This document shows, one piece after another, positions 1 through 18,907 of a DNA stretch of 64,000 nt. Numbering within the stretch: position 1 is the first letter of the stretch; each line of letters opens with the position of its first letter. The position numbers and the translations under genes are program-made. Source of the DNA: Candidatus Poriferihabitaceae bacterium (GTDB lineage: Bacteria > Pseudomonadota > Gammaproteobacteria > Arenicellales > Poriferihabitantaceae); NCBI GenBank assembly GCA_965206445.1, contig CBDBJR010000001.1:146135-210134 (forward strand). The letters are read 5' to 3'. Under the pieces are notes generated by a model. It was not told the origin of the DNA and searched no databases. It saw nothing but the letters and a program-made list of their open reading frames with translations.

Positions 1-1095
1 CAATATGCGGCTTGCCAATGCCGCGACGATGAATGGCGAATAAATGTTTTCTGGAAAACGAAGGCGCATCAAATACCCAGCATACGCATAATTTCCTGAT
101 TCCTCGTCAAAGTGAATTGTCGATCCAACTAGCGATCGACTGCCATTCGATCGAATCATTAACACGTCATGCTTCTTGAGTGAATACTGTTTCTTCTCAG
201 CTTTTGTGAGGTTCGTGTATTTCAAGTCCTCCGTGGACAATTTCCCGGTCGATACATTGGGAATTCGCAACACAGCAGTATTTTTTGACGAATCGTAAGA
301 GCATTTTTGAGCAGTTCCATATTGGAGAGAATGGAACAGACATCCCAATCGGCACCACTCCCAGCCCTTCGGAATCTCGAAGGGAATTTCTTCGGGGGTG
401 ATTTTGGGGAGGGATTTTTCTTTGCGGAGTTTCTTTTCGGCGATGAGGCGGGCTTTTTCGGCCTGGATGCGGTGGAGGAGCTGGCTGGCGGGTTCCACGT
501 CCGGGTGGGCGGCGCGCCAATCCTCCGTCAGCTTGCCCTGAATCGCCTCCTGCAGGATGGCTTGCTTGAGCTTGCTGAGGAGGGATTGCTGGTGGGTGAT
601 TTCGTGTTCAAGATTCGAGTGCTCCAAAGCACACGAATCCATGCGCTTGATGATTCGATCCTGCACATCCGGCTCAGGGATGGGTAGTTCAACCGCAAAT
701 AATGCTTCAGGCTGGATGCGTTTTGTGGCGGCACCGCGCGCAATTGAGACCAGAGATTTGTAGAAATCCCCCTGCTTTAGAAAATACTCCAGCCACTCGG
801 GGCTAAGGCCATCAGCCACATCAAAGGCAGGGAGATCAGAACTGCTTTCAAATCCATCCAATTCCTGCGGCACTACTCCAAATGCGCCTTTGTGAAGATT
901 TTGCTTTCCATAAATGAACTGCCCTGTTCTCCGCTTGAAATACCGCGTCGCACCCTCAGTTTCTGCAATCAATGGACGCTTTTCGATCCCCTCTGCGTTC
1001 AGCCGAACCCTGATGCGCCGTTCAGCGGAAGGGTCAGATGATTCGATTTTGCTCTCGTTGAGATAATCCCCAATGCGCTTTTGCGGCCAATTCAT
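1..1095 (-). CDS. hsdS: Type I restriction-modification specificity subunit HsdS (3' end runs off the left window edge)
   Basis: Absent from the ORF track because it has no stop in the window. I checked every minus-strand codon from 1095 to 1 and found no stop. The translation MNWPQKRIGDYLNESK... contains the HsdS central conserved region LLSKLKQAILQEAIQGKLTEDWR...LLHRIQAEKARLIAEKK...IPFEIPKGWEWCRLG. Its ATG (1093-1095) overlaps the hsdM stop as ATGA. Confidence 0.8.
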   Translation of the reverse strand, partial: MNWPQKRIGDYLNESKIESSDPSAERRIRVRLNAEGIEKRPLIAETEGATRYFKRRTGQFIYGKQNLHKGAFGVVPQELDGFESSSDLPAFDVADGLSPEWLEYFLKQGDFYKSLVSIARGAATKRIQPEALFAVELPIPEPDVQDRIIKRMDSCALEHSNLEHEITHQQSLLSKLKQAILQEAIQGKLTEDWRAAHPDVEPASQLLHRIQAEKARLIAEKKLRKEKSLPKITPEEIPFEIPKGWEWCRLGCLFHSLQYGTAQKCSYDSSKNTAVLRIPNVSTGKLSTEDLKYTNLTKAEKKQYSLKKHDVLMIRSNGSRSLVGSTIHFDEESGNYAYAGYLMRLRFPENIYSPFIVAALASRIL

Positions 1096-2525
1096 TTTAT
1101 AAGGGTCCGTAGAGTTTCCAAATGTTTGCGGGAACGATTAAAGCCTTGTTTGATCTGGTTCATGATTTCTGCGGCAGAGAGTTCCTGTGTATCCTCCTCC
1201 CGATGCGGATTCTTCACATCCAGATCAAACCCCTTCTTCAAATCCCCGACCTTCATCTTCCACGCAACTTCGCTTTCCTCGCGCTTGTTCCACCATTCGA
1301 TCATGGGCGCGAACTCGTCGAACCGGATGGCTTTGGTTTTGGAGTAGCTCTTCTGCCTCCCGGGCAGGCAGTGCTCGTAATACCAGATTTCTTTCGTCGG
1401 TGTGCCTTTATGGAAGAAGAGCAGGTTCGTGGAGACCGTGGCGGGAAAGAAGGTGGACTGCGGGAGGCGGACGATGGTGTGCAGGTTGCAGTCGGTGAGG
1501 AGTTTTTCACGGATGCGCTCCTTGTAGCCGTCGCCGGTGATGCAGCCGTCGGGCAGGACGATGGCGCAGCGGCCACCGGGCTTGAGCAGTTGGATCATGA
1601 GAATGATGAACAGGTCGGCAGATTCCCGGCAGCGGAAGGAGGCGGGGAAGTTGGTTTCGACGCCTTCGGCGATTCCTGCACCGAAGGGCGGATTGGCGAG
1701 GATGACTTCCACCTGTTGCCTGGGGCCGATGGAGTTGTATTCGGTCTTGAGACTGTCGAGGTAATGCCAGTCGGGCACGTCGAGGCCGTGGAGAATTAGA
1801 TTGGTGAGGCCGAGCACATAGGGGACAGGTTTGTACTCCCAGCCGTGAATCGAATTTTGGAGGATGGCCTCGTCGTCGAGGGTGTGGACTTCGTTATCAC
1901 GGATGTGGTCGATGGCGGCAGTGAGAAAGCCACCGGTTCCGGCGGCGGGGTCGAGCACCTTTTCTCCGAGCCTGGGCGCGGTCATCTGCGTCATGAGCCG
2001 GGTGATGGCGCGGGGCGTGTAGTATTCGCCCTTGTTCCCGGCGTCACGAAGTTCGATGAGGATCGATTCGTAAATCGTGCCGAAGATGTGGCGATCTTCC
2101 GAATTGTTGAAGTCGAAGCCGTTGAGTTGGTTGATGACTTTGCGCATCGCGAAGCCCGACTTCATGTAATTGTTCACTCCATCGAAAACTTCCCGAACGA
2201 TACCCGCGCGCTGCGGGGCTTTCAGAGCCTGTAGATTTGTGAGATGGATAAAGAGACCGTCGACAGGGTGGTTGATGAACAAAAGGAGTTCATCTCCGGT
2301 GATGCCCTCGGGGTCGGTTGCCCAGTTGCGCCACTGGAATTTCTCAGGGATGACGGAGGTATAGCCCTCGCGGATGAGTTCGAGTTCCTGGTCTTTCTCG
2401 TCGAGGATTTTCAGGAAGAGCATCCAGCCGAGTTGCTCAAGGCGCTGGGCGTCGCCGGAGATTCCGGGATCTTCGTCTCGCATGATGTTGCGGACATTTT
2501 TAACGATGGCAGAGATGTTGGGCAT
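1092..2525 (-). CDS. hsdM: Type I R-M N6-adenine DNA methyltransferase subunit HsdM
   Basis: 477 aa. SAM-binding motif VLDPAAGTGGFL and catalytic motif ILANPPFG. N-terminal HsdM-type region (RLEQLGWMLFLKILDEKD). Sits in operon order hsdR-hsdM-hsdS. Confidence 0.9.
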   Translation of the reverse strand: MPNISAIVKNVRNIMRDEDPGISGDAQRLEQLGWMLFLKILDEKDQELELIREGYTSVIPEKFQWRNWATDPEGITGDELLLFINHPVDGLFIHLTNLQALKAPQRAGIVREVFDGVNNYMKSGFAMRKVINQLNGFDFNNSEDRHIFGTIYESILIELRDAGNKGEYYTPRAITRLMTQMTAPRLGEKVLDPAAGTGGFLTAAIDHIRDNEVHTLDDEAILQNSIHGWEYKPVPYVLGLTNLILHGLDVPDWHYLDSLKTEYNSIGPRQQVEVILANPPFGAGIAEGVETNFPASFRCRESADLFIILMIQLLKPGGRCAIVLPDGCITGDGYKERIREKLLTDCNLHTIVRLPQSTFFPATVSTNLLFFHKGTPTKEIWYYEHCLPGRQKSYSKTKAIRFDEFAPMIEWWNKREESEVAWKMKVGDLKKGFDLDVKNPHREEDTQELSAAEIMNQIKQGFNRSRKHLETLRTLIK

Positions 2526-2537
2526 GGGATTCTAAGG

Positions 2538-4931
2538 TTAGGCGGCTTCGTAAAGGTGGGTGGTGAGTTCTTTGATGGCCTGGTCGTAGGCGGGTTTGCC
2601 GCCGAAGGCGCGGACGATCTCGGGCGCGGTACCGAGGCGTTTGATCGGGTCAAGGGTGATGATGGCGGGGTTTTCGAGGTCAAGCAGGCCGTCGTCGGCA
2701 TATTTTTCCAGCAGGCTATCGAGGACGGCGCGGGCGAGGTCGCCATACCGGGTGAAGTAGTTGCGCTTGCGCACGTTCTCGGCGCGCTCCCGGCGGGTCA
2801 GCGGTTTCTGCTCGAAGGCGACGTGGCAAATGAGATCAAAGGGATCGAAGTCGGAGCCGACTTCATCTTGCAGGGCGGCGAAGATGACGCCGCGGTTCTC
2901 CAATTCTTCGACGATGGCGCGCTTCTTTTCGGCGTCCCGCCATGAGGTGAGGAAAGAACCCAGCGAGGCGTAGCTCGTCCGGACGTTTTTGCGGGTGTAG
3001 TCGCGCAGGCTCTCGGTGATAATCCTGCCGTCACCGCCTATGTATTGGACGCGCTCCTTGATGATGGTTACCTCGACGCCGTTGACGATCACCTTGCGGC
3101 GTTTTGGCTTTTTGTCAGTGTCTTCGTCATCAATGGGGATGCCGAGGGTCTCCGGATCGGGAAATTCGATATAGTCGCCGGTGAGGTCGTCGATGACGGG
3201 GGTGTCATCGGTTTCCTCGTCGGTGTCGGAGAGATCGTCGTCCTTGCCGACTTCCTTCACGCGGACGGGATCGCCGTCGAAATCCTTGTCGGCGAAGAGT
3301 GCGGTGACATTTCGGAAATCCATGATGGTGAAGTAGTGCTTCCTGAAGTCTTCATTGATGCGGGTGCCGCGACCGATGATCTGCTTGAACTCGGTCATGG
3401 AGACGATGTTTGCGTCCAGAACAATGAGCTTGCAGGTCTGGGCGTCGACACCGGTGGTCATGAGCTTTGAAGTGGTGGCGATAACCGGGTAGATCTCGGA
3501 TGGGCTGATGAAGGCGTCGAGATGGCGTTTGCCTTCTTCGTTGTCTCCCGTAATCTGCATCACGTATTTGCTGTTTGCGGAGACAAGGTCGGCGTTGGCG
3601 TTGGCTAGTTCCTTGCGCATATCTTCGGCGTGTTCGATATCGACACAGAAGACGATGGTCTTGGAGAAGCGGCCGCTGCCCTTGAGGAACTCGGTGATCT
3701 TTTGCGCGACGCGCTGACGGCGTTCTTCGATAACGATGCGTCTGTCGAAATCGGTGCGGTTGTAGATGCGGTCTTCGACATCCTTGCCGTCCTTGTCCTT
3801 GAAGCCTTTCGGCGGGCGCCAGCCCTCAGGATCGATACCCAGAGTGACATTGAGGACCTCGTAGGGGGCGAGGAAGCCGTCGGCGATGCCCTGCTTGAGG
3901 GAATAGGTATAAAGCGGGTCGCCGAAATACTCGGAGCTGGAGACTTTTCTGGTTTCCTTGGGCGTGGCGGTAAGGCCGATGTGGGTGGCTCCGTTGAAGT
4001 ATTCGAGGATTTCGCGCCACTTGCTGTCTTCGCTGGCGCTGCCCCGATGGCACTCATCGACGATGACGAGATCGAAGAAGCTGGGGCTGAACTGCTTGTA
4101 GGCGTCGTTGTCGCTGTTATTGTTGCCGGAAAGGCCCTGGTAGAGCGCGAGGTAGATGTTGTAGGCGGTGTTGATCTGCCTGTGCTTGATGACGGTCATC
4201 GCGTCCTTGAAGTGGCGGAAGTCGCCCCGGACGGTCTGGTCTATGAGCACGGTGCGGTCGGCCAGAAACAGGATGCGCTTTTTCAGGCCACTCCGCCAAA
4301 GGCGGTAGATGATCTGAAAGGCGGCGTAGGTCTTGCCCGTGCCCGTCGCCATGACGAGGAGGTGGCGGTTGTGGCCTTCGTCTTTGGCGATGGTTTCGAC
4401 TGTACGGTTGATGGCGATCTGCTGGTAATAGCGGGGGGAGCGACCTGATCCGTCAATGAAGTATTCTTGAACCACCACCGGTTCGGCAGCGTCTGTGATG
4501 CCGTTGTGCGCCTTGTATTTTTCCCAGAGGGTTTCCGGGCTCGGAAAAGCGCCCAGGGCGAGCTCGGTTTCGATGGTGCCTGAAGTGATTGTGCGATCGT
4601 GAAAATGGAAGCCGTCGCCATTGCTGCTGAAGACAAACAGAATATCCAGCGTCCTGGCGTAGCCGAGTGCCTGCTGCATGCCGGCGCCAACTGTGTGATT
4701 GTTGTCTTTCGCCTCAACGACCGCGATAGGGATGTTGGGCTTATAGTAGAGAATGTAGTCGGCGCGCTTCTGCGCTCCGCGTGTGTGGAGTTTCTTTCGA
4801 ACGTAGATTCTGCCGTCAGTGAACCCAACTTCCTCGCGAATCTGGGTGTCTATATTCCATCCTGCCGCGACGATGTTGGGCGTGATGAACTTGGTGCAGA
4901 TGTCGCGTTCGCTGAGATCCTTTTTGTTCAT
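2538..4931 (-). CDS. hsdR: Type I restriction enzyme R subunit HsdR
   Basis: 797 aa. N-terminal PD-(D/E)xK-like ADYILYY...IAVVEAKD. SF2 motifs VMATGTGKT (I), VIVDECHRG (II) and GLTATP (III). Long C-terminal helical region typical of EcoEI-type R subunits. Confidence 0.9.
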   Translation of the reverse strand: MNKKDLSERDICTKFITPNIVAAGWNIDTQIREEVGFTDGRIYVRKKLHTRGAQKRADYILYYKPNIPIAVVEAKDNNHTVGAGMQQALGYARTLDILFVFSSNGDGFHFHDRTITSGTIETELALGAFPSPETLWEKYKAHNGITDAAEPVVVQEYFIDGSGRSPRYYQQIAINRTVETIAKDEGHNRHLLVMATGTGKTYAAFQIIYRLWRSGLKKRILFLADRTVLIDQTVRGDFRHFKDAMTVIKHRQINTAYNIYLALYQGLSGNNNSDNDAYKQFSPSFFDLVIVDECHRGSASEDSKWREILEYFNGATHIGLTATPKETRKVSSSEYFGDPLYTYSLKQGIADGFLAPYEVLNVTLGIDPEGWRPPKGFKDKDGKDVEDRIYNRTDFDRRIVIEERRQRVAQKITEFLKGSGRFSKTIVFCVDIEHAEDMRKELANANADLVSANSKYVMQITGDNEEGKRHLDAFISPSEIYPVIATTSKLMTTGVDAQTCKLIVLDANIVSMTEFKQIIGRGTRINEDFRKHYFTIMDFRNVTALFADKDFDGDPVRVKEVGKDDDLSDTDEETDDTPVIDDLTGDYIEFPDPETLGIPIDDEDTDKKPKRRKVIVNGVEVTIIKERVQYIGGDGRIITESLRDYTRKNVRTSYASLGSFLTSWRDAEKKRAIVEELENRGVIFAALQDEVGSDFDPFDLICHVAFEQKPLTRRERAENVRKRNYFTRYGDLARAVLDSLLEKYADDGLLDLENPAIITLDPIKRLGTAPEIVRAFGGKPAYDQAIKELTTHLYEAA

Positions 4932-5386
4932 GCGGCTGTCCTGAGAACCGGTTTGTCGTCTTCTTTCCAGTCGATGAGGGTGTCGGCGATGGAATACTTG
5001 TGCAGGCAGCTTTGTTCGTTCTCACAGCCAACGGTCTTGAAGCGGCCCTTGCCGTAGGCGGTCTTGTCCACCGGGGTGCTGGTGAAGCCGAGAAAGGTCA
5101 TATTCGGCAGACCGGCCATCAAGAAGTTGCCGAGGTTGCCGCCGGTGGTGCAGTAGGCTTCATCGATAAGGATATAGATGCTTGAACGTAAATTGAGATT
5201 CGCTGGCATGTCGCGGAACTTGTGGGTCATCGTCACGATGATGCCTTGGTAGTCATCTTTCAGTAGCTGGTTGATCCGGGTGATGCTGCTGGCGCAGAAC
5301 GAAGTGTTATGGAGAAATGATGCAGAATAAAATGGTACCAACCATAACTTATTCATTTTACATTCCTCTCCTTGTCTTTCGACCAC
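4928..5386 (-). pseudogene. Remnant of a second, different-family type I HsdR (internal fragment only)
   Basis: Keeps degenerate HsdR landmarks in the right order: GIIVTMTHKF (TIQKF-like), IYILIDEAY (DEAH degraded) and LPNMTFLGFTSTPV (GFTGTP degraded). Motif I and the whole C-terminal half are missing. Its stop overlaps the intact hsdR ATG as ATGA. Confidence 0.55.
4960..4991. repeat. Left copy of a 32-bp direct repeat (30/32 identical to 10143-10174)
   Basis: cttctttccagtcgatgagggtgtcggcgatg here versus cttccttccactcgatgagggtgtcggcgatg at 10143-10174. On the minus strand it encodes IADTLIDWKE versus IADTLIEWKE. The flanks show no similarity. Confidence 0.85.
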
Positions 5387-5530
5387 AATCGACTTGAAGT
5401 GTACTGAGTTTCATTGAGATCAGATTCGTTGTTTTCTTTGGATAGAGAATTCTGAAGCTGCCAAAGGACAGAGAAAACACCGTCCGAGAATAGGGTTGGT
5501 TTCATGGAGCGTGCTGACTGGGAGACTGAT

Positions 5531-5794
5531 TCACACGTAGACGCGAAGACATGAAGTCTTGAGGGTTGTTGACGATACGATTGTAGTCTTCCCTAAAGGT
5601 TGTGTCTCCGAAGCTGATGAGCCTGCCGACCCAGTTACTTGCGCCGTTTCGGCATCGACCTTCAGAGCGCTGACCACCTTCCTCCCGTCAACACCATCGA
5701 ATAGATGGCTATCATAAACAAGGAAACGAGGGGCGATCCCACGATTCGCACAAAGCCGCATGACTATCATGTCGAAGCCGGGTTCATCGTTCAT
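5531..5794 (-). other. Small ORF overlapping the helicase stop, apparently frameshifted (unknown function)
   Basis: ATG at 5792-5794 overlaps the helicase stop (ATGAACGATGA). It reads MNDEPGFDMIVMRLCANRGIAPRFLVYDSHLFDGVDGRKVVSALKVDAETA, then becomes low-complexity. A second frame continues plausibly (NWVGRLISFGDTTFREDYNRIVNNPQDF...). I recognise no family. Confidence 0.2.
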
Positions 5795-8700
5795 CGCCGG
5801 CGATGATCTTCCACACTTGTCTGTAGTCGCCTCCGGACAGCTGAGCATTTTCTGGGCGGGCGCGGTTCCAGGTCTCAATATCTGCGTCAGCAAGAAATTG
5901 GCGAGCCTTCTGGATTCCCGCTCCGCCTTCGCCTGCTGGTGCATTCTGCTGATAGTGCTTGCCCATGCGCTCTGCGATGGACCGCGGAACACCGTTCATG
6001 CGCATGAGCACACCTTCTTCAGTTTTTACCCCGTGATAGATCATCGCGGGCAGGAGATCGATCGACCGCTTCTGTTCAGGTGAGAGTGTCTCGAAATTAA
6101 TCCCAGACAATCGGCTCAGCGCCGAAAGACCCCATGTGCCGTTGTTGACGAGATTTCGGTAGATGGCGCGGCACGCCTTGGTGATTGCATTGGTGACATC
6201 TCCATTGGCCTGGAAATACGTGGTCGCAATTTCCTGAATACTCCTTCCCTCCACCCATGCTTTGGTGATCTGCGCAAGCCGGCGATTGTCAGTGCCAGGT
6301 GTCGTGAGCTCACCCAAATTACGTGCAAGCTGGGGGATGCGGAGCATGATCCCATAGAAATCGGCCATGCCATCGGTGTTGCCAAAAAGTCTCTCACCGG
6401 AAAAATCCTCCACCGTAACATCGCGTTCCAAGGACTGGAGGCCATGCAGGGCATTGCCGACACCCTCGAACGAGAAGCCCGTCATGTCCGCCATGGCCAC
6501 CCGACCGGGATTCTCCGAGATTTTCCGGGCGTACTGCTTGGTTGCTTCGAGCAGCTTTTGTGCGCGTGCACGACCAGCCGGATCTTCTTGCAGGACTCGG
6601 TAACCGTAAGTGTTGCGCAAAGACAGCTCCGCGCTTGATAGCACTTGCTCCAGATTGCCGATCTCATGGACCAGATGGTTCACGTAGCAGCGGAAATCCT
6701 CCCACTGCTCGTTTTGAATTACGGCTGCGAGTTCATCGGGAGATTCCGCGGCATCTAACTCGGCCACGACCGTAACCAAGCGAGAGACCAACTCGCCCGT
6801 GGCTTTTTTCACATATTCAACGATGTCGGCTGGACGGTTGGCTTCGGCGATGCCGACGACGCCCACGCTGTCTTGGTTCATCCGCCCGGCACGTCCTGCG
6901 AGGTTCCAGAACTCTCTCGGGTGCATCTCGACGTTGTATGGATACAGGTTGGTTGCCAAGAACACCGAGGACACCGGGAAGTTGATGCCCTGCGCAATCG
7001 TGGTCGTGGCGCATAACACGCGAAGGTCGCCCTCCTCCGCAAGCCACTCGACAAGCGTTCTCACCTCATCGGAAAGGGCTGCGTGATGTACCGCCACGCC
7101 GCGTGCAAGCATGCCGATCAATTCGAACTCGGGACTGATTTCGGACGCCAAAAACTTCTGCACAAGTTTAATCCGATAGGATGGCCCATCACTCTCAGGC
7201 AGCTTCTTCGCCGCTTCACGCGCCATCGACCACACCGCTGAGATTTTTCCCCCCACGGCGATACTCGTGCCGCGCGCCGAGAAAACGGTCGCCATTGCGG
7301 CTGCCTGGAGAGCGAATCCCTGCTGCTCTCCATTAGCCTTGATCAACTTGGATTTCGCCACATCGAGCGGCTTGACTCCGCCCACCGGATGCTGCCCCGC
7401 CAGATGGATTGTTCCCGGCGTGGTAACCAGCGTTTGATACCGCAGCTTCCATCCGGCTCTCTGGCTGGTATCGGCTTCGGCTCGGAACATTCCCACGATG
7501 CGTTCGTTGGGCTTCCAAACGCTGGTGCCGATACTGATCGAGCGGCCGCCCGTTGCGTCGTTGGCGAGCCATCGCGCCAGCGCATCCGCCCGCTCCACGA
7601 ATGGCATCAAGAGGAGGAAATTCGCTCGCGTGCTCTCCTGCTTGACGGTGGCCAGCAGCAGTTCGATGCGCATTCCACGCTGTTCGCTTTCCATATTGTG
7701 GGCCTCATCCAACACAAGTAATGCGAGCGGACGTGGCACCTTCTTGTTACGGATCACCAACTGGAGTTTCTCCGGTGTCGCCACCAACACATCAAAGCTG
7801 CGAGCGTCATCTTGCCTCGAGGCGGAGAGCATTTCATCTTCAATGGCGTCAATTTCCACCGCACCAGTCAGTTGCTCCACGCGGATGCCGACAGGAGTGA
7901 AATCCCGGCGCAGGCGTCGGGTGATCTGCGCGCTGAGGGCGCGGGTCGGTACCACATAGGCCACCCAGCCACCATCTTCGGCGAACTGGTTCAGCGCCTG
8001 CAGAATTCGGAACTGGGCCAGCAACGTCTTGCCGCCCGAGGTTGGCAGGTCGACAACCACAGCGGTCGCCGCCTGATCGAGCAGTCCCTGCTCCTGCAAT
8101 GCGGCTCGTTGCGGTGGGAGCAGCTCAAACATCGCCTGCTTCTTTGTTGTGGACCCAACGAAGCGTGTGACCCGTGAATTGATCCCGTGGGCGACCCACC
8201 AGAGGGAACCGGCGACCATCTGCCGGGAAGTGGCATGCAGCCAGCGCATGAGCACCTCGAGTTGGGCATCACCTCCGGCTGCGGCGGCATCCGTTGCCGC
8301 TTCGAAATGCTTGTCGAGCTGGGCATTGATGCCCCCTGGTTCGCCTTGAAGGACGTATTTGGCGAGTAGCTCGGTGGCCTTGGCCCAATTGTAGAAGGTG
8401 ATCAGCCGTAACGCCATTGCCCGGTCCTGCATGTTGGAACCGCTATCGAGCGATGTTTGCTCGAACTGCCGCTGGTCTTCACGCAATCCGGCTATCGTCT
8501 CATGAATACGGTCGAGGTCGTCCCAGCCTTTCTTTCGGAAGAGTCTCACCCAGCAATCGAACAAGCGATACAGCAGGCGATAATGCCAAGGTTGATCTGC
8601 CACAGAAGGTTCCGCGATGGATTCCGGGTTCTCCGTAAACCAACGCCGGATATCGGACCAGCGGTCACCGCAATACGCTAACCCCGCCAGATGAAGAACG

Positions 8701-9050
8701 TGAAAAATGCGCTCTTCGACTGGTTCAGGGACAGAAAACAGCCGGCGTAACTCAAACGTCCGCCAGGCGCCTGCGACGCACTGCTTGCGCAGGCCGTCCT
8801 CGGCAAGCGAAAGATTCAGGAAGGCAGGCAGACCTTCAATCGCGGCCATCTCGTAGGCGAGAGCGAGACGGCGGAGAAGATCCTGGTCGCTCGCCCGCTC
8901 TTCATAGGACAGGCGCATTTGCCCCCCAACCGCCTTCGCGACAAGGCGCGCATTGGCGACCTCGAGCCCGTGATCCCGTTCTTCGACACCGATGGCGAGC
9001 ACGGCCCAGTGGTCGTCCACGGAATCGATGGTTTTCTTGTTCAGACTCAT
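5784..9050 (-). CDS. Large SF2 (Ski2/Hel308-like DEAH) helicase, HamB-like candidate defence helicase
   Basis: Track ORF 5784..9182 trimmed to MSLNKKTIDS... because that ATG (9048-9050) overlaps the upstream gene's stop as ATGA. Motifs: DLPTSGGKT (I), LVLDEAHNM (II), GVAVHHAALS...VLCATTTIAQGINFP (V) and LAGRAGR (VI). About 350 aa of N-terminal helical region and about 330 aa of C-terminal region are unassigned. Confidence 0.8.
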   Translation of the reverse strand: MSLNKKTIDSVDDHWAVLAIGVEERDHGLEVANARLVAKAVGGQMRLSYEERASDQDLLRRLALAYEMAAIEGLPAFLNLSLAEDGLRKQCVAGAWRTFELRRLFSVPEPVEERIFHVLHLAGLAYCGDRWSDIRRWFTENPESIAEPSVADQPWHYRLLYRLFDCWVRLFRKKGWDDLDRIHETIAGLREDQRQFEQTSLDSGSNMQDRAMALRLITFYNWAKATELLAKYVLQGEPGGINAQLDKHFEAATDAAAAGGDAQLEVLMRWLHATSRQMVAGSLWWVAHGINSRVTRFVGSTTKKQAMFELLPPQRAALQEQGLLDQAATAVVVDLPTSGGKTLLAQFRILQALNQFAEDGGWVAYVVPTRALSAQITRRLRRDFTPVGIRVEQLTGAVEIDAIEDEMLSASRQDDARSFDVLVATPEKLQLVIRNKKVPRPLALLVLDEAHNMESEQRGMRIELLLATVKQESTRANFLLLMPFVERADALARWLANDATGGRSISIGTSVWKPNERIVGMFRAEADTSQRAGWKLRYQTLVTTPGTIHLAGQHPVGGVKPLDVAKSKLIKANGEQQGFALQAAAMATVFSARGTSIAVGGKISAVWSMAREAAKKLPESDGPSYRIKLVQKFLASEISPEFELIGMLARGVAVHHAALSDEVRTLVEWLAEEGDLRVLCATTTIAQGINFPVSSVFLATNLYPYNVEMHPREFWNLAGRAGRMNQDSVGVVGIAEANRPADIVEYVKKATGELVSRLVTVVAELDAAESPDELAAVIQNEQWEDFRCYVNHLVHEIGNLEQVLSSAELSLRNTYGYRVLQEDPAGRARAQKLLEATKQYARKISENPGRVAMADMTGFSFEGVGNALHGLQSLERDVTVEDFSGERLFGNTDGMADFYGIMLRIPQLARNLGELTTPGTDNRRLAQITKAWVEGRSIQEIATTYFQANGDVTNAITKACRAIYRNLVNNGTWGLSALSRLSGINFETLSPEQKRSIDLLPAMIYHGVKTEEGVLMRMNGVPRSIAERMGKHYQQNAPAGEGGAGIQKARQFLADADIETWNRARPENAQLSGGDYRQVWKIIAGDER

Positions 9051-9838
9051 CGGGTACCTCCTTGCCGACGGACGGCCACGACCTGAGTGCCCAATGTGGC
9101 GATACTGCCTTGCGGGAGATAAATGCCCAGCAGCTCGATCACGGTGGCGCCAGGACAGTTGCGCCCCAGAGCCGCTACGCACGCCTTGAGGTCGTTCTTA
9201 TGCGGGGCCACATCGCGAACCAGAAGACCGAAAATTCGCACTTCGCAGGGATCGCGAAGATACACGCCCGCAGCAGATTTGTAGCGTTTCAGCCAAGTGC
9301 TCTGCTCGGCGCGGTGACCAAGATACTTGATCAGATCATCCCGAATGATCTTGCGGTCCCGAAGATCTTCCAACTGTTGTTTGAGTCCGTGGCGGCCATA
9401 GACGACACTTGGAGGATAAGTTCTCTCCGTAGATGTCTTTACTTCGCCAAACGCGAAGCGCTCTATCTGACCGTCGCGCTGAAAGCCAACCAAGTCCGCG
9501 CCCGGAAGACTAGAACCGCGCTTGCGCTTATCCCGGCCATCGGGCCATGGGAAATGGCAGTCCTTGTTTTCCGTGAGGTAACACTCTGCCAACGCTTCGC
9601 CCACGCGCCAATCTTCCAGATCGCGCGCATTGTTCAGAAGCGCATCAAGATTCTCCTGCGCAAAATTGGTATCCGCCACACTGCCAAGGAGGTTGGCGAT
9701 CTCGTCATTGCCCGCATCGTCAAACACCACCGCAGAAACGGGCCCCGATAATGCTGCATCAAGGTCGTCCGCAGACACGCCCAAACCCGTACCCGTAACC
9801 GGGTGTGTTCCCATCGTGTAGTGTTCCGTGACGCGCAT
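9047..9838 (-). CDS. PD-(D/E)xK-type nuclease, HamA-like candidate (effector of the nuclease-helicase pair)
   Basis: 263 aa. Core ...SSLPGADLVGFQRDGQIERFAFGEVKTS... gives D115 / E132-x-K134 by my count. Translationally coupled to the downstream helicase. Confidence 0.6.
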   Translation of the reverse strand: MRVTEHYTMGTHPVTGTGLGVSADDLDAALSGPVSAVVFDDAGNDEIANLLGSVADTNFAQENLDALLNNARDLEDWRVGEALAECYLTENKDCHFPWPDGRDKRKRGSSLPGADLVGFQRDGQIERFAFGEVKTSTERTYPPSVVYGRHGLKQQLEDLRDRKIIRDDLIKYLGHRAEQSTWLKRYKSAAGVYLRDPCEVRIFGLLVRDVAPHKNDLKACVAALGRNCPGATVIELLGIYLPQGSIATLGTQVVAVRRQGGTR

Positions 9839-9843
9839 GGTTT

Positions 9844-10869
9844 CTACTTTCCAGAAATTAGTCTGGAATGCAATGCTCGGTATAATCTATTCCCTGATAA
9901 GCAATTACGCGGCGTCATACCTTGCCCTCCTGTTTTATGGCGGCAAGGAGTTCGGGGCTGTCGGCAGTGAGGCAGAGAAGGCAGTTGCAAATGGGGTCGC
10001 TGGGTACGTTGAGGGTGACATAAGAAATAGGCATTTGCGTGCGAAGTTTCGGCGTCACTGGTGTGGATGTGGCGGCTGGGGGAGATATTGTAGTCATTTT
10101 TCACAAGTTCGGCATGATCAACGATGCGACTGAGTTTTTCCGCTTCCTTCCACTCGATGAGGGTGTCGGCGATGCGCTGGATGCCTTCGTCCAGGATGAA
10201 GTTCATTGGGGTCGCCTTTTTCGAAGACCTGGCTGGCGTTAACGAGGAAGACCTTGCCCTGTCTGGTCTTGGCTTGATCTTGTTGAGGAAGAGAACGATG
10301 CCCGGAGCGGTGGTGCTGTAGAAGAGGTTTTCGGACAGGTAGAGGACGCTCTCGATAAAGTCGTGGTCAACGAACCACTGACGGACGGTTTTTTCCTTGT
10401 TGGTGCCGGCATTACCCGATCCGCAGGAGGCGGCACCGGTATCGAGAACGACGGCGGCGCGACCGGTGGCGTTGAAGCTGGCGTGCATGTGCTGGACCCA
10501 GCCCCAGTCGGCGGAGGATTTACCGGGGAAGCCGGCCCCGGCGGGGAAACGATCGAGTTCGTCGTTGTCGGCTTCGGTTTGGATAATCCGCAATTTCTCG
10601 CGCTCTTCGCCGTCGTCCTGGCACAGCCAGTCAGGATTCTTCGCAATCCATTCTTGCAAACCAAAACACTCGCGCGCGCCGATTTCCCTAGAGGTTGCGG
10701 GCGGCATTTTTGTCATTTCCTTGTCGTTTCGGTTGACAGCGTACAGTCCCATCGGTGTTTTCTCCTTGGTCGTACTCTCCGCACAGGCGGACATATTGGA
10801 AAGCAAACAGAATATCACGGTTGGTTTGCCCATCAAAGCGCGCGCCGAGATAACCCACCTCACAAACAA
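9844..10869 (-). pseudogene. Decayed type I HsdM remnant (C-terminal half only, frameshifted, fused to unrelated N-terminal sequence)
   Basis: Contains HsdM C-terminal-half sequence ADWGWVQHM...GRAAVVLDTGAAS...FIESVLYLSENLFYSTTAPGIVLFLNK and ...IADTLIEWKE...VKNDYNISPSRHI. The SAM-binding and NPPF/Y motifs are absent. Over about 10205-10275 the expected KTRQGKVFLVNASQVFEKGDP appears only in another frame, so there are at least two frameshifts. Confidence 0.6.
10143..10174. repeat. Right copy of the 32-bp direct repeat (see 4960-4991)
   Basis: 30/32 identity, same orientation. Lies inside the hsdM remnant. Confidence 0.85.
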
Positions 10870-10884
10870 CGCACTTGTTTACGC

Positions 10885-11340
10885 TTATTCTACCGCCTGA
10901 ATCAACGGCTCAACCACATCCCTGATATGCTGCGGCGCAGCGATGCTGGTGTGCGTTTTGGCGCGGGTGAATACGCAGACAAATTCGCCGGTAAAGCACC
11001 GGTTTGCATCCTGAAAACCGGTCACCCGGAAGCGGATGGAGCGGTTGCCGATGCGTAGCGGCTGTACCTCGCATTGCAGCAGGTGGCGCGGGGTGACCGG
11101 TGCGCGGAAGTCGATGCTCATGTGCACAAACGGGGTGCCGATGCCGGTGTCTAGTTCCATCTGGTACCAGCCGTGGCCGAGTTGCCGCTGCCACCAGTTG
11201 TCGATCGCGTCCAATGCAAACCAGGCTATGCGGCCGGTGAACGCAATCGCCGCCGGGTCGCAGTCGGCCCAGCCGACGCGGATGGTATGGATGAACGGCG
11301 ATGGCGCCGTGGCGGGCGCCGGCTCAGTAGGTCTCGACAT
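10885..11340 (-). CDS. Hotdog-fold acyl-CoA thioesterase (4HBT/YbgC-like)
   Basis: Trimmed to MSRPTEPAP... (ATG at 11340). FIHTIRVGWADCDPAAIAFTGRI... matches the 4-hydroxybenzoyl-CoA thioesterase-type fold. Last gene of the box operon. Confidence 0.6.
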   Translation of the reverse strand: MSRPTEPAPATAPSPFIHTIRVGWADCDPAAIAFTGRIAWFALDAIDNWWQRQLGHGWYQMELDTGIGTPFVHMSIDFRAPVTPRHLLQCEVQPLRIGNRSIRFRVTGFQDANRCFTGEFVCVFTRAKTHTSIAAPQHIRDVVEPLIQAVE

Positions 11341-12517
11341 GGTAGCGGCCGCTCTCGCGCATCTCGGTGCGCAGGGTTTGCCAGGCGATGCCGTGGGCGC
11401 CGGCAATCTCGTCAAACGCCGCTTCAACCCCGCTCTCCATGGCCTTCAGGCCGCAAATATAGATGTGGGTGCGCGTATCCTGCAGCAGTGCGGCCACCGT
11501 GTCGCGCGCCTGGCGCAGGCCGTCCTGGACATGGTTTTTGCGCTCGCCGGGCACCCGGCTGAACGAGAAATGTTTGCTCAGGATGCGGTCGGGGATTTTT
11601 TCAAGCGGCCCGAAGTAGGGCAGCCCATCCGGTGTGCGGGCGCCAAAGAACAGCGTCATCGTCTGCGTCAGGTCGGGGTGGGTGCGCCGCCGGCGCATCG
11701 TGAAGCCGCGAAACGGCGCCGCGCCGGTGCCGGTGCATATCATCAGCAGTCGCGCCTGCGGGTCGTCCGGCAGCAGGAAGGTGGAACCAAACGGCCCGAC
11801 CAGTTTTACCGCCGCGCCGGGTTGCAAATCGCAGAGGTGGTTGGAGCACACGCCCTGCCGTTCGCGTTTGACGGTCAGCGAGATGTTGTTGTGGTTGGGG
11901 CGTTCGCCGTCACGCGGACTGGAAACCGAATACAGCCGCGGGGTGTGCGGCCTGCCGTGTGCATCGCTGCCCGGTGCAATGATGCCGACGCTTTGGCCTT
12001 CTAAAATCGGCAGCGGGGTGTTGCCCAGGTCGAGAATAATATGCCGCACGTCGAACTCCTGATGCGCCGGCGTCAGGCTGTAATTGCCCTGCACGATCGC
12101 GGCGGCCGGTTTGCCGGGGTGGTACAGGTTGACGCTGGATTTGGAGGCCGATAGCGGCGCCTTTTGTTTGCCGCCGGCGCCCTGGTGCGCTTCGGCCAAT
12201 AGTGCGGCGACGCTGTCGTCAAGCGCTTCGATGCTGGTGTTGACGTCGGCCGCACCGGCGAGCGCTTCCTGCGCCGGCAGCTCCAGCCAGCCAAACTGCT
12301 GTTCCAGCGTATAGGCCTCGCGCACCACCCGCCATTCGTCAATCGAGCCGGTGGGGCAGGGGCTGATGCAGGCCATGCAGAAATTGCATTTGTCGGCATC
12401 GACGACGACATTGTCGTCGTTGTGGCTGATCGCCTGAATCGGGCAGGTCGCCTCGCAGGTATAACAGCGGATGCAGATCTCCGGGTCGATCAGGTGTTGC
12501 TTGATGGGCTTGGGCAT
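11324..12517 (-). CDS. boxA: Benzoyl-CoA 2,3-epoxidase reductase component BoxA
   Basis: Two ferredoxin 4Fe-4S motifs (CIRCYTCEATCP, CNFCMACISPCP) are followed by an FNR-like domain (RLYSVSS, ICTGTGAAPFRGF). Adjacent to boxB/boxC. Confidence 0.8.
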   Translation of the reverse strand: MPKPIKQHLIDPEICIRCYTCEATCPIQAISHNDDNVVVDADKCNFCMACISPCPTGSIDEWRVVREAYTLEQQFGWLELPAQEALAGAADVNTSIEALDDSVAALLAEAHQGAGGKQKAPLSASKSSVNLYHPGKPAAAIVQGNYSLTPAHQEFDVRHIILDLGNTPLPILEGQSVGIIAPGSDAHGRPHTPRLYSVSSPRDGERPNHNNISLTVKRERQGVCSNHLCDLQPGAAVKLVGPFGSTFLLPDDPQARLLMICTGTGAAPFRGFTMRRRRTHPDLTQTMTLFFGARTPDGLPYFGPLEKIPDRILSKHFSFSRVPGERKNHVQDGLRQARDTVAALLQDTRTHIYICGLKAMESGVEAAFDEIAGAHGIAWQTLRTEMRESGRYHVETY

Positions 12518-12535
12518 CGCTTCTGCGGCGGCGCC

Positions 12536-13978
12536 TCAGCCCAGCCGTACGTACTCGAAATCACCGGGCTTGTTGTCAACCCCGACTTTCGGCGGCGCAA
12601 TCCAGCCGGCATATTTTCCGGGCTGCAACACCGGCTGCATCAGGGATTGGATGAAGTCGCCGTCCGCCGACGTCGGCAGCCAATCGCCCCGGTGCGCCGC
12701 CCACGTCTCGGCGGCCATTACCGTGCCCGCCGGGTCGATCGACACCGCGGCAAATTCGCCAATCTGCCGGTGAAAGCCTTCGTGCGGCAGCTTTAGCGCA
12801 AACGCGATGCCGTGCTTGTGGATGGTTTTATTCCAGCGCCCGATGCCGCCCGACGCATCGCGGATGTAGTCATCCCGCAAGCGCATGTTGATGGCCGACA
12901 GCGCCGGCACGTCGACCGACTGAATCGCCCCGTCGATCAGCCGACGGATCGGATAGGTGTCATTTCTGAGCTGATGATCGTCGTCGATCCGCAGCTCGGC
13001 GTAGCGCCCCTTGATGCCGGCGTTAAAGGCATTGGCCGCATTGGTCGAGACTTCCTGACCAAACAGGTCGAGCGAGAGCGAATAGTGCAGGTTGAGTTTT
13101 TTCTGCATGGTCGGCAAATCGATCACCCCCAGCGCGCGCACCCGATCGCGGTCAAACGGGTCGTCGATGCCGGCCCGGTTCATCGCCTCGACGGTGCGCT
13201 GAATGATGCGGCCAACGCCGGACTCGCCGACAAACATGTGATGCGCCTCTTCGGTCAGCATGAACCGGCAGGTGCGCGACAGCGGGTCAAAACCGGATTG
13301 CGCCAGGCTCTCCAGCTGCATTTTGCCGTCGCGGTCGGTGAAGTAGGTGAACATAAAAAACGACAGCCAGTCGGGGGTTTGCTGGTTGAACGCGCCCAGC
13401 ATACGCGGCGCCTCGGAAGAGCCGGAGGTGCGGCGCAGCAGCTCGGCCGCTTCTTCACGGCCATCGACGCCAAAGTATTTTTGCAGCAGGTAGACCATCG
13501 CCCACAGGTGGCGGCCCTCTTCGACGTTGACCTGAAACAGGCTGCGCATGTCGTACAGCGACGGCGCGGTCTTGCCGAGGAAGCGCTGCTGCTCGACCGA
13601 CGCCGGTTCGGTGTCGCCTTGAATCACAATCAGGCGGCGCAGCATGGCGCGATATTCGCCCGGCACCTGCTGCCAGACCGGCTCGCCGAGATGTTGGCCG
13701 CAGGGGATGGTCCGGCCCTCGACCTGCGGCGCCAGCAAAATACCCCAGCGATAGTCCGGCATCTTCACATAACCGAATTTTGCCCAGCCTTTCGGGTCAA
13801 CACTGACCGCCGTGCGCAAATAGACCGGGCTGTCGTGAAAGCCGTCCGGGCCTTTATCGCGCCACCACTCGAGGTAGCCGGGATGCCATTTTTTCAGCGC
13901 CTTGAGCACGCGCTGATCATCGGCCAGGCCGACGTTGTTGGGGATTTGCTCGTCGTAGCTAACGTTGATGCTGTCCAT
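12536..13978 (-). CDS. boxB: Benzoyl-CoA 2,3-epoxidase oxygenase component BoxB
   Basis: 480 aa, with diiron-type carboxylate/His motifs (e.g. LTEEAHHMFVGE). Conserved position between boxA and boxC. Confidence 0.75.
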   Translation of the reverse strand: MDSINVSYDEQIPNNVGLADDQRVLKALKKWHPGYLEWWRDKGPDGFHDSPVYLRTAVSVDPKGWAKFGYVKMPDYRWGILLAPQVEGRTIPCGQHLGEPVWQQVPGEYRAMLRRLIVIQGDTEPASVEQQRFLGKTAPSLYDMRSLFQVNVEEGRHLWAMVYLLQKYFGVDGREEAAELLRRTSGSSEAPRMLGAFNQQTPDWLSFFMFTYFTDRDGKMQLESLAQSGFDPLSRTCRFMLTEEAHHMFVGESGVGRIIQRTVEAMNRAGIDDPFDRDRVRALGVIDLPTMQKKLNLHYSLSLDLFGQEVSTNAANAFNAGIKGRYAELRIDDDHQLRNDTYPIRRLIDGAIQSVDVPALSAINMRLRDDYIRDASGGIGRWNKTIHKHGIAFALKLPHEGFHRQIGEFAAVSIDPAGTVMAAETWAAHRGDWLPTSADGDFIQSLMQPVLQPGKYAGWIAPPKVGVDNKPGDFEYVRLG

Positions 13979-14007
13979 ACGGGATTGCTCCGGTCAAGGT
14001 GTTCCGG

Positions 14008-16294: not shown

Positions 16295-16304
16295 GGTCGG
16301 CCCC

Positions 16305-18682: not shown

Positions 18683-18765
18683 GCTGTCCTCAACGCGGCA
18701 TTATACGGTATGATATTTCGCTTTGATTCGCGGGCGGTGTATCGTCCGCTCTGCTGCACGGCAAT

Positions 18766-18849
18766 ACGCTTGCAGGACGCTTGCAGGCAAACTGGCGGGC
18801 GGTCGGCAACGGCGGTTGAAATTATGCCATAGTATGCATACGCGCTGCA
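18766..18849. promoter_or_regulatory. Divergent promoter region with TGCA-containing repeats (possible BoxR/BzdR-type operator)
   Basis: Tandem 11-bp acgcttgcagg x2 (18766-18787) and TGCATACGCGCTGCA (18835-18849). Lies between bclA and the ABC importer. Confidence 0.3.
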
Positions 18850-18907
18850 CTCGAACGCCACACACATCTCGCCCTGCGGGGCCAACTATCGAACCGGAGA
18901 AAACAAA

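What the first reader, a model, noticed from the sequence alone, without database searches (positions are those of the whole stretch)
4960..10174. 32-bp direct repeat (30/32) brackets the 5.2-kb segment carrying the nuclease-helicase module
cttctttccagtcgatgagggtgtcggcgatg (4960-4991) and cttccttccactcgatgagggtgtcggcgatg (10143-10174) lie in the same orientation. Both are in-frame coding sequence on the minus strand (IADTLIDWKE versus IADTLIEWKE). Sequence on either side of each copy is unrelated at both nucleotide and protein level.

The right copy is native HsdM C-terminal sequence. The left copy forms the last 20 codons of the remnant ORF that is ATGA-coupled to the intact hsdR.

A short identical core flanking a cassette is what Campbell-type or short-homology insertion leaves behind. 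It also provides a substrate for precise excision or deletion of the helicase module.
Basis: seen in the sequence. Interest (0 to 1): 0.6.

Follow-up and report, generated by a model that had tools for sequence, protein, structure and literature searches.

The report
Recombination scar beside swapped defence genes
The repeat is real, but it is two leftover pieces of one very common restriction-system methylase gene: the left piece is an old recombination scar in front of a working restriction gene, and the helicase defence module between the copies arrived and is exchanged independently of them, an ordinary pattern in bacterial defence islands.

Summary
The two copies match at 30/32 bases, and the match extends to 36/41 (4951-4991 vs 10134-10174), with none expected by chance.

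Both copies come from one widespread, highly conserved Type I methyltransferase family, here called hsdM'. The right copy is native sequence inside a truncated, twice-frameshifted hsdM' pseudogene. The left copy is a 41-nt hsdM' relic at the 3' end of a leader ORF whose stop overlaps (ATGA) the start of an intact EcoEI-type hsdR.

This relic precedes hsdR in eight loci of the hsdR clade, counting the window. In the window, L202 and L001 its 5' end is joined to a fragment of hsdR', the partner restriction gene. The join lies at an 11-nt microhomology (CATCGCCGACA; Ile-Ala-Asp in both proteins).

The best explanation is one-ended homologous plus microhomology-mediated insertion of a piece of a native hsdM'-cargo-hsdR' operon into an hsdM' stub.

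The PDC-M23 nuclease-helicase unit (5653-9954) has boundaries well inside the repeats and occurs elsewhere without them. Cargo at this slot differs between alleles:
- PDC-M23 in the window.
- A 1532-aa STAND-like gene in L202.
- An LmuB-like four-gene set in L001.
- Nothing in L037.

This is a scar of short-homology insertion, not an att core of the helicase cassette.

The parts
10134..10174 (-). It is native coding sequence of the hsdM' pseudogene (..GIQR-IADTLIEWKEAEK-LSRIV..).
   Evidence: It is native on both sides when aligned with 55-57 native hsdM' genes.
4951..4991 (-). Left copy: a 41-nt relic of hsdM' (IADTLIDWKEDDK) inside the leader ORF of the intact hsdR.
   Evidence: The same relic lies upstream of hsdR in L202, L001, L037, L203 and L206/L207.
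4981..4991 (-). Junction J1: the 11-nt microhomology CATCGCCGACA, shared by native hsdR' (..AAGTATTCCATCGCCGACAGCATCGAG..) and native hsdM' (..CAGCGCATCGCCGACACCCTCATCGG..).
   Evidence: 5 of 7 native hsdR' genes carry the exact 11-mer.
4992..5294 (-). hsdR' pseudogene fragment covering helicase motifs II-III, decayed to DEAY and FTSTP. At protein level it is traceable to about 5390.
   Evidence: Pfam SWI2_SNF2 profile 78-182, E=1.4e-15. 81-89% nt identity to native hsdR' genes. 23 derived substitutions shared with L001, and a synonymous:nonsynonymous ratio of about 1:1.
4928..5386 (-). Chimeric leader ORF of 152 codons: hsdR' fragment, then hsdM' relic, then a 7-codon tail. Its stop overlaps the hsdR start (ATGA).
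4928..4950 (-). Tail of the leader (PVLRTAA*) containing the AGGA ribosome-binding site of hsdR. Junction J2 (end of hsdM' homology) lies at about 4950/4951.
   Evidence: The tail is conserved in L202, L001 and L203/L206/L207 and diverged in L037.
2538..4931 (-). Intact EcoEI-type hsdR (797 aa).
   Evidence: Pfam HSDR_N, ResIII, EcoEI_R_C. PADLOC REase_I, 1112 bits.
1092..2525 (-). Intact hsdM (477 aa) of the same active system.
1..1095 (-). hsdS of the active system. The frame is open from 1095 to the window edge, so the gene runs off the left end.
   Evidence: The central conserved region is 94-97% identical to L001 and L202 hsdS.
5653..9954 (-). PDC-M23 transferable unit, as delimited by homology to other loci.
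   Evidence: 94.8% over 4302 nt to L204; 85% over 9973-6122 to L205.
9047..9838 (-). PDC-M23A (263 aa; putative nuclease partner; no Pfam family).
   Evidence: PADLOC PDC-M23A, E=3.5e-99. No Pfam hit.
5784..9050 (-). PDC-M23B, a HamB-like DEAD/DEAH helicase. The likely start is the ATG at 9050, which overlaps the stop of A as ATGA, giving 1088 aa.
   Evidence: PADLOC PDC-M23B, 1411 bits; HamB, E=3e-55. Pfam DEAD and Helicase_C. Start deduced; the L204 homologue is 1087 aa.
10044..10570 (-). hsdM' pseudogene fragment: 5'-truncated, with two frameshifts, and 3'-truncated after ..HTSDAET.
10571..10752 (-). N-terminal fragment of a PDC-S11-like gene, fused to the hsdM' fragment. The junction is shared with L202.
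   Evidence: PADLOC PDC-S11 profile 1-53 of 375; L202.
5295..5652 (.). Unassigned spacer between the PDC-M23 unit and the hsdR' fragment.
   Evidence: No nucleotide match in any fetched locus.
9955..10043 (.). Unassigned spacer between the hsdM' fragment and the PDC-M23 unit.
10885..11427 (-). Thioesterase gene: the first chromosomal gene beyond the island. GC rises from about 55% to about 65% here.
   Evidence: The same flank is 97.5% identical in L202.

Best explanation
The two copies are fragments of the same gene family, not the ends of a mobile cassette.

A widespread Type I operon, hsdM'-hsdS'-(variable cargo)-hsdR', is the source of both. In an ancestor, a short hsdM' stub of about 30 codons (..EKGDPKNFIPDEGIQRIADTLIGWKEEEK) became fused about 20 nt upstream of an unrelated, active EcoEI-type hsdR-hsdM-hsdS system. 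It survives there as the 3' end of a leader ORF whose stop overlaps the hsdR start.

Later, a piece of a native hsdM'...hsdR' operon was integrated at this stub. One end recombined by homology within hsdM'. The other end joined illegitimately at an 11-nt microhomology (CATCGCCGACA) that happens to encode Ile-Ala-Asp in both HsdR' and HsdM'.

That event duplicated the part of the stub between the microhomology and the stub's 3' end, which is exactly the 41-nt repeat. It left hsdM' and hsdR' stubs flanking a cargo slot. Cargo in that slot has since been replaced at least twice, at breakpoints unrelated to the repeat. PDC-M23 is the current occupant in this genome.

Shown: the anatomy, both junctions, the native parents, the allele series and the independence of the PDC-M23 unit.

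Inferred: the order of events and the one-ended homologous (HFIR-type) mechanism.
For: 1. Parents of the junction. Relatives of the remnant read HKYSIAD|SIEDGTTL, while the remnant reads HKYSIAD|TLIDWKE... Native nucleotide sequences share CATCGCCGACA.
2. hsdM' and hsdR' are partners in one operon. In 10 native metagenome loci they lie 2.3-7.2 kb apart, which indicates a variable cargo slot.
3. The relic and tail precede hsdR in the window, L202, L001, L037 and L203 and in L206/L207. In L037, L203 and L206/L207 the flank upstream of the relic is of hsdM' type (QR/HR-I/V-AD). Since L203 and L206/L207 are the outgroups, the stub state is ancestral and the hsdR' junction is derived.
4. The L001 right-copy flank matches the L037 stub at 60/64 bases. 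Homology begins at the same base (AAAGGCGACCCC) although the chromosomal contexts differ. Both share a CAC codon seen in 0 of 57 native genes.
5. The window and L001 hsdR' fragments share 23 derived substitutions, which points to one origin for the chimera. Flank divergence of 85% is close to the neutral level seen at hsdR 4-fold sites, about 90% identity.
6. The cargo is independent of the repeat. The unit 5653-9954 is 94.8% identical to L204, which has no core copy. L202, at the same chromosomal site, carries a different gene between breakpoints 10532 and 5215 and has only the left copy. L001 has both copies and a third kind of cargo.
7. Microhomology of 3-10 bp at the illegitimate end, and insertion coupled with deletion, are the described hallmarks of homology-facilitated illegitimate recombination (PMC3240628).
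Against: - The window's own hsdM' fragment (10044-10570) is about 400 nt longer at its 5' end than the L037 and L001 stubs. At least one further replacement on the right side must therefore be assumed for this genome.
- The hsdR gene body groups L037 with the window rather than placing it outside the junction-bearing alleles. Informative sites split 26:12:11 with L203 as outgroup. This fits L037 being a secondary deletion product, or recombination within hsdR.
- The mechanism (transformation or HFIR versus a circularised fragment versus replication template switching) cannot be told apart from the product alone.
- Only eight loci of this hsdR clade were available, counting the window.
Confidence: 0.7

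Rival explanations
1. The 32-mer is the attachment core of a Campbell-type or site-specific integrative cassette that carries the nuclease-helicase module. The module entered hsdM by recombination at this core and can excise precisely.
For: Direct repeats in the same orientation flank the module. L037 has the hybrid-flank single copy expected of an empty site.
Against: - The PDC-M23 unit, defined by homology (5653-9954), ends 190 and 660 nt inside the repeats. It occurs in L204 and L205 with no copy of the core.
- The right copy is native hsdM' on both sides.
- L202 and L001 carry different cargo, with breakpoints that are not at the repeats.
- No recombinase is present. The only unassigned DNA is 358 nt plus 89 nt.
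- There is no tRNA gene in 1-20000.
Confidence: 0.04
2. The left copy was copied from the resident right copy within one ancestral locus. This could have happened by a microhomology-primed tandem duplication followed by a deletion, or by a replication template switch that placed 41 nt of templated filler between hsdR' and the hsdR leader. Single-copy alleles such as L037 then arose by recombination between the two copies.
For: The same 11-nt microhomology would prime such a switch. The hsdR body places L037 with the window (26:12:11 informative sites), as expected if L037 lost the insert secondarily. The L037 structure equals the product of right-by-left recombination.
Against: - Stub-type leaders occur in the outgroup alleles L203 and L206/L207, so the stub predates the hsdR' junction.
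- Position 38 of the 41-mer is C in the left copies of the window, L202 and L001. It is A in L037, L203 and the family consensus. This is the wrong way round for a product carrying the right copy's 5' part and the left copy's 3' part.
- The left copy is no closer to its own right copy (36/41) than to unrelated family members (34-37/41).
Confidence: 0.2
3. The similarity is coincidental or convergent. Two unrelated proteins happen to encode IADTLI(D/E)WKE with the same GC-biased codons.
For: The 20-nt core also occurs in 61 unrelated genes that encode IADTLI in metagenomes. Ile-Ala-Asp is native to HsdR'.
Against: - Native HsdR' continues SIEDGTTL, not TLIDWKE.
- The match runs for 41 nt at 36/41, with no match in 100 shuffles.
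- Stub-type alleles show continuous hsdM' sequence upstream of the relic.
Confidence: 0.01

Closest known systems
Defence genes embedded in Type I restriction-modification operons. Examples are PrrC (from my own knowledge), TgvAB in Vibrio cholerae VPI-2 (PMC11411939) and the 'guilt-by-embedding' PDC candidates of Payne et al. (bioRxiv 10.1101/2024.01.29.577857).
   Same: A two-gene defence candidate, PDC-M23, sits between the hsdM and hsdR genes of one Type I system. PDC-M23 is also found inside or next to other Type I loci. Native hsdM'-hsdR' operons hold 0-5 kb of variable cargo.
   Different: Here the embedding operon is a fossil: both hsdM' and hsdR' are fragments and hsdS' is gone. The fossil lies directly in front of a second, intact Type I system of another family.
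Homology-facilitated illegitimate recombination (de Vries and Wackernagel 2002; Prudhomme et al. 2002; summarised in PMC3240628).
   Same: One junction lies in homologous sequence. The other lies at a short microhomology between unrelated genes: 11 nt here, against 3-10 bp typically. Alleles differ by insertion coupled with deletion (window vs L202: 5.3 kb vs 4.65 kb).
   Different: The process is inferred from the product only. Neither competence of the host nor RecA dependence is known. The inserted DNA is several kb, more than the roughly 1 kb typical of laboratory events.
Sequential displacement of Type VI secretion effector-immunity modules in Vibrio cholerae, which leaves orphan remnants (PMC5361080; known to me from title and abstract only, so a lead rather than a test).
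   Same: Incoming modules replace resident ones using conserved neighbouring genes as homology. Truncated remnants of earlier occupants are left behind.
   Different: It is a different system (Type VI secretion, not restriction or defence). I did not read the paper's junction analysis.
Hachiman (HamA-HamB).
   Same: PDC-M23B matches HamB helicase profiles (E=3e-55). A small upstream partner gene is translationally coupled to it.
   Different: The best hits by far are the PDC-M23 profiles. PDC-M23A has no Pfam family at E<=0.01, including DUF1837, which by my own recollection is the HamA domain.

Membership tests
Site-specific (Campbell-type) integrative cassette | Identical core at both ends of the mobile unit. 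| tested here: not met
   The unit defined by 94.8% identity to L204 is 5653-9954. The repeats lie at 4951-4991 and 10134-10174, and L204 and L205 have no core copy.
Site-specific (Campbell-type) integrative cassette | Each repeat copy has one target flank and one element flank. | tested here: not met
   The right copy is native hsdM' on both sides. Only the left copy sits between foreign flanks.
Site-specific (Campbell-type) integrative cassette | Integrase or recombinase encoded in or next to the element. | tested here: not met
   All ORFs in 4928-10869 are assigned: hsdR' fragment, PDC-M23A/B, hsdM' fragment and PDC-S11 fragment. The unassigned DNA is only 358 + 89 nt.
Site-specific (Campbell-type) integrative cassette | An empty site with a single core in relatives. 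| tested here: inconclusive
   L037, and the more diverged L203 and L206/L207, carry a single copy with an hsdM'-type upstream flank and a leader-type downstream flank. This fits an empty site for the ancestral insertion, but not for the PDC-M23 unit.
Homology-facilitated illegitimate recombination product | Short microhomology at the junction of two unrelated sequences. | tested here: met
   The 11-nt CATCGCCGACA is present in native hsdR' and native hsdM'.
Homology-facilitated illegitimate recombination product | A homologous anchor on the other side of the insert. | tested here: inconclusive
   The L001 right-copy flank matches the L037 stub at 60/64 bases, with the same 5' boundary. This is consistent with an anchor in the stub, but the crossover cannot be located.
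Homology-facilitated illegitimate recombination product | Uptake of linear foreign DNA and RecA dependence. | not testable with these tools
   This needs genetics in the host.
Type I R-M operon with embedded defence cargo | The flanking hsdM and hsdR belong to one system. | tested here: met
   The hsdM' and hsdR' families co-occur in the same orientation, 2.3-7.2 kb apart, in 10 native loci.
Type I R-M operon with embedded defence cargo | The embedding system is intact. | tested here: not met
   hsdM' is truncated and frameshifted, hsdR' is a fragment of about 100-130 codons, and hsdS' is absent.
PDC-M23 (PADLOC phage-defence candidate) | Both genes A and B present, adjacent, and matching the family profiles over their full length. 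| tested here: met
   A: E=3.5e-99, profile positions 6-260 of 265. B: 1411 bits, positions 4-1059 of 1060. ATGA overlap between them.
PDC-M23 (PADLOC phage-defence candidate) | Anti-phage activity. | not testable with these tools
   PDC systems are predictions by embedding. No paper in the library mentions PDC-M23.
Hachiman | A HamA (DUF1837) partner. | tested here: not met
   No Pfam family for the 263-aa protein at E<=0.01. The only PADLOC hits are PDC-M23A. That DUF1837 defines HamA is from my own knowledge.

The most novel reading that the evidence does not exclude
The hsdM' stub may not be mere debris. It could be an exapted element that does two jobs.

First, as the 3' end of a leader ORF whose stop overlaps the hsdR start, it could provide translational coupling for the restriction subunit. 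The ORF is open in all eight loci, at 39-152 codons, whatever gene fragment supplies its 5' part.

Second, because it is homologous to a very widespread Type I operon, it could act as a docking handle. Defence cargo embedded in that operon would then be captured in front of the active system by one-ended homologous recombination. That would make the fossil stubs a cargo-capture site for defence islands.
Probability: 0.2. Interest if true: 0.55.

Novelty: new member of a known kind. Interest (0 to 1): 0.3.

Why it matters
The result shows, base by base, how one defence-island slot was built and is being turned over. An old gene stub was fixed in front of an active restriction gene. One insertion at an 11-nt microhomology followed. 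Three different defence cargoes and one cargo-free allele are now seen at the same slot.

Three of the related loci (L001, L202, L204) come from a single metagenome sample, so exchange within one community is plausible.

The result is useful as a worked example that short direct repeats around defence genes need not be att sites. It does not reveal a new kind of system.

Tried and rejected
- Exact-protein look-ups of the window's own hsdR, its remnant ORF (P0001) and its PDC-M23A (P0197) found no record, so the source contig could not be fetched. P0078, probably the L037 type, also had no record.
- I first thought the left copy might be native to the HsdR' family, because the Pfam SWI2_SNF2 match runs through ..IADTLID. 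I rejected this because native HsdR' continues SIEDGTTL.
- I considered that positions 22 and 38 of the 41-mer distinguish 'left-type' from 'right-type' copies. Position 22 turned out to be polymorphic (C/G) in native genes, so only position 38 is used.
- I considered that the tail ..KPVLRTAA* derives from a native gene upstream of hsdR, because L002 ends ..ENNPRIAA*. No ORF of 80 codons or more ends there in L002, and the resemblance is too short to decide.
- The attempt to polarise L037 (ancestral versus deletion product) with an hsdR tree gave a near-trichotomy, and the body and leader characters conflict. The bootstrap values printed looked mis-assigned and are not used.
- The test for selection keeping the leader ORF open was inconclusive. 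Substitutions alone leave it open with probability 0.24-0.49 per lineage.
- The hsdM' fragment has no DNA match in the plasmid collection.
- No sample locus holding native hsdM' carried PDC-M23 or the L001 cargo.
- The promoter and terminator scan of 4800-5900 gave only weak consensus matches.
Full report
**1.

Without gaps the similarity extends to 41 nt at 36/41 (4951-4991 vs 10134-10174). No other match with up to 3 mismatches exists in the window, nor with up to 6. No match at up to 3 mismatches appeared in 100 dinucleotide-preserving shuffles. Immediately outside the 41 nt the flanks are unrelated, at 4-5 identical bases of 20. The repeat is therefore real and not due to chance.

**2. Anatomy of the region**

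All genes lie on the minus strand. They are listed here from high to low coordinates.

- GC content falls from about 65% to about 55% near 10,900-11,000. Beyond that point lie a thioesterase gene and two ORFs that I read as boxA and boxB from their sequences (own knowledge; Pfam families for the L202 homologues are). These form the chromosomal flank.
- The ORF 9844-10869 is a mosaic. It starts with a PDC-S11-like N-terminal fragment. This is fused at 10570 to an hsdM fragment covering N6_Mtase profile positions 144-309.
- This hsdM fragment, here called hsdM', has a 1-nt deletion and a 1-nt insertion relative to 55 native relatives. It loses homology after ..HTSDAET at 10044. The right repeat copy is ordinary internal coding sequence of this pseudogene.
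- Next come PDC-M23A (9047-9838) and PDC-M23B (5784-9050). Their stop and start overlap as ATGA. B is a HamB-like DEAD/DEAH helicase.
- The 152-codon ORF 4928-5386 matches the SWI2_SNF2 ATPase domain of Type I restriction subunits, helicase motifs II-III, which have decayed to DEAY and FTSTP. It ends with the left repeat copy, seven more codons, and a TGA that overlaps the ATG of hsdR.
- An intact EcoEI-type hsdR (2538-4931) follows, then hsdM (1092-2525) and hsdS, which runs off the left edge of the window.

**3. What the left copy is**

Database relatives of the remnant ORF read ...FGCEDDQGYLHKYSIAD-SIEDGTTLPLYY... The remnant reads ...CLHKYSIAD-TLIDWKEDDKPVLRTAA*. The Ile-Ala-Asp codons are therefore native to the restriction-subunit family, here called hsdR'. 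Everything after them is hsdM' sequence.

At nucleotide level:
- Native hsdR' reads AAGTATTCCATCGCCGACAGCATCGAG.
- Native hsdM' reads CAGCGCATCGCCGACACCCTCATCGG.
- The two share an 11-nt microhomology, CATCGCCGACA (window 4981-4991).

The left copy is thus a junction (J1) of illegitimate recombination between an hsdR' gene and an hsdM' gene. A second junction (J2) lies 41 nt further on, where hsdM' homology ends about 20 nt before the hsdR start.

**4. The two parent genes belong together**

- 58 are native hsdM' genes, with a strikingly conserved protein and DNA sequence (...SQVFEKGDPKNFIPDEGIQRIADTLIGWKEEEKLSRIVDHAELKKNDYNISPSRYIHTSDAETYRP).
- 61 are unrelated genes that happen to encode IADTLI.
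- None is chimeric.

In ten of the longer native loci an hsdR' gene lies downstream of hsdM' in the same orientation, at distances of 2.3 to 7.2 kb. This is a Type I operon with a variable cargo slot.

The left copy is no more similar to its own right copy (36/41) than to 32 other family variants (34-37/41). The repeat therefore reflects shared family membership rather than a recent local duplication.

**5. Alleles of the locus**

| Locus | hsdR identity to the window | Chromosomal context | Upstream of hsdR |
|---|---|---|---|
| L202 | 98% aa | Same site; flanks 97.5% identical | Window 10531-5216 is replaced by 4.65 kb carrying a 1532-aa STAND/HEAT-like gene. Keeps the PDC-S11\|hsdM' junction with about 11 hsdM' codons, a shorter hsdR' fragment, J1 and the left copy. 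No right copy. |
| L001 | 89.7% aa | Next to dapF | Both copies and the same chimera. Cargo is an LmuB-like AAA_23 ATPase, two unknown genes and a Type II-like methyltransferase. |
| L037 | about 91% aa | Next to a dprA-like gene | One copy only, with about 45 nt of hsdM' sequence upstream of it and the leader tail downstream. No hsdR' fragment and no cargo. |
| L203, L206/L207 | 87-88% aa | Other contexts | A short leader (..SSIDNK(Q/H)(L/R)VADI(Q/L)P(S/N)W..EEKPVLRTAE*). This is a diverged copy of the same relic, with an hsdM'-type upstream flank. |

More distant hsdR loci lack the relic.

**6. Order of events**

Evidence that the stub came first and J1 is derived:
- The relic and tail are shared by all eight loci of the clade, so the hsdM' stub in front of hsdR is the oldest feature.
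- Stub-type leaders occur in the outgroup alleles L203 and L206/L207 and in L037. J1 occurs only in the window, L202 and L001.
- The left copies of those three share a derived C at position 38 of the 41-mer. L037, L203 and the family consensus have A there.
- The hsdR' fragments of the window and L001 share 23 derived substitutions.
- The L001 right-copy flank matches the L037 stub at 60/64 bases. The match starts at the same base in two different chromosomal contexts, and both carry a CAC codon absent from 57 native genes.

Together these indicate that a piece of a native hsdM'...hsdR' operon was inserted into the stub. One end was homologous (within hsdM'). The other was joined at the 11-nt microhomology. 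The stretch of stub between the microhomology and the stub's 3' end was thereby duplicated, and that stretch is the 41-nt repeat. This matches the described features of homology-facilitated illegitimate recombination (PMC3240628). A circularised fragment integrating by a single crossover would give the same product.

The conflicting signal is in the hsdR gene body. With L203 as outgroup, informative sites split 26:12:11 in favour of window+L037. L037 could therefore be a secondary loss by recombination between the two copies, or hsdR could be a recombinant mosaic. Position 38 argues against secondary loss. I put retention at about 65% and secondary loss at about 35%.

**7. The helicase module is not what the repeat delimits**

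- Window 9954-5653 is 94.8% identical to L204. There PDC-M23 lies beside a different Type I system, and no copy of the core is present. An 85% match to L205 has nearly the same upstream end.
- Another homologue sits between the hsdR and hsdS of an EcoR124-type system.
- PDC systems were defined by being embedded in BREX, DISARM and Type I systems (bioRxiv 10.1101/2024.01.29.577857). Embedded defence genes in Type I operons are documented experimentally, for example TgvAB (PMC11411939).
- The unit's ends lie about 190 nt and 660 nt inside the repeats.
- The window-L202 and window-L001 cargo differences have breakpoints at 10532/5215 and at about 10044/5294.
- No recombinase gene fits in the remaining unassigned DNA, and no tRNA gene lies within 1-20000.

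**8. Verdict**

It is wrong about what was inserted and about the repeat being the cassette's boundary.

The other criterion, no variation in the intervening content, is not met.

The phenomenon combines three things that are already known: fossil gene stubs, microhomology junctions, and defence cargo embedded in Type I loci. It is a new example rather than a new kind of system.

One possibility remains open and would be modestly interesting. The stub may be retained because it supplies a coupled leader ORF for hsdR and a homology handle for capturing cargo. The open-frame evidence for this is weak.

Noticed in passing
window 10571-10869; L202 4722-5162: An N-terminal fragment of a PDC-S11-like defence candidate (profile positions 1-62 of 375) is fused to the 5'-truncated hsdM' fragment. 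The junction is shared by the window and L202, so it predates their cargo difference.
   Followed up: partly
window 10201-10211 and 10265-10276: The hsdM' pseudogene carries a 1-nt insertion and a 1-nt deletion about 60 nt apart, which restore the frame. As a result a 341-codon ORF stays open across three unrelated pieces.
   Followed up: partly
L001, L202, L204 (all ENA sample ERZ25069326): Three alleles come from a single metagenome sample. One is a close relative of the window's genome that lacks PDC-M23 (L202). One is a PDC-M23 unit 94.8% identical to the window's (L204). One is a third-cargo allele (L001). Donor-like and recipient-like forms therefore co-occur in one community.
   Followed up: no
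L202 15461-19514 (beyond the left edge of the window): In the closest relative the island continues past hsdS with a 76-aa ORF, an FRG-domain gene, an hsdS fragment, a Shedu-type (SduA_C) gene and a DUF3644 gene. The window probably cuts the island.
   Followed up: no
window 2538-4931 vs L001 and L037: The intact hsdR evolves with little constraint. Amino-acid identity (89.7%) is no higher than identity at 4-fold degenerate sites (89.9%). Eight of the twelve sites that group the window with L001 cluster at alignment positions 1779-1844, which suggests a recombination patch or a variable linker.
   Followed up: partly
window 6438-6467 and 10159-10188: A 30-nt inverted repeat (83% complementary) pairs part of the right copy with a site inside PDC-M23B. 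It is probably a chance match.
   Followed up: no
window 3848-3888; L202 11044: The intact hsdR carries ATCGCCGAC (..GIADGF..) at the position that, by my reading of the aligned protein sequences, corresponds to the HsdR' ..SIADSIEDG.. motif. The Ile-Ala-Asp microhomology thus appears to recur across Type I restriction subunits.
   Followed up: no
L087-L201 (native hsdM' loci): The hsdM'/hsdR' family is about 90% identical in DNA across metagenomes from many environments. This suggests recent wide horizontal spread. No match was found in the plasmid collection.
   Followed up: partly
L205 9797-9882: Immediately upstream of PDC-M23A in L205 lies an 86-nt piece, 77% identical to the 5' part of the window's hsdM' fragment (10543-10458). 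This hints that the linkage of hsdM' and PDC-M23 is older than this locus.
   Followed up: no
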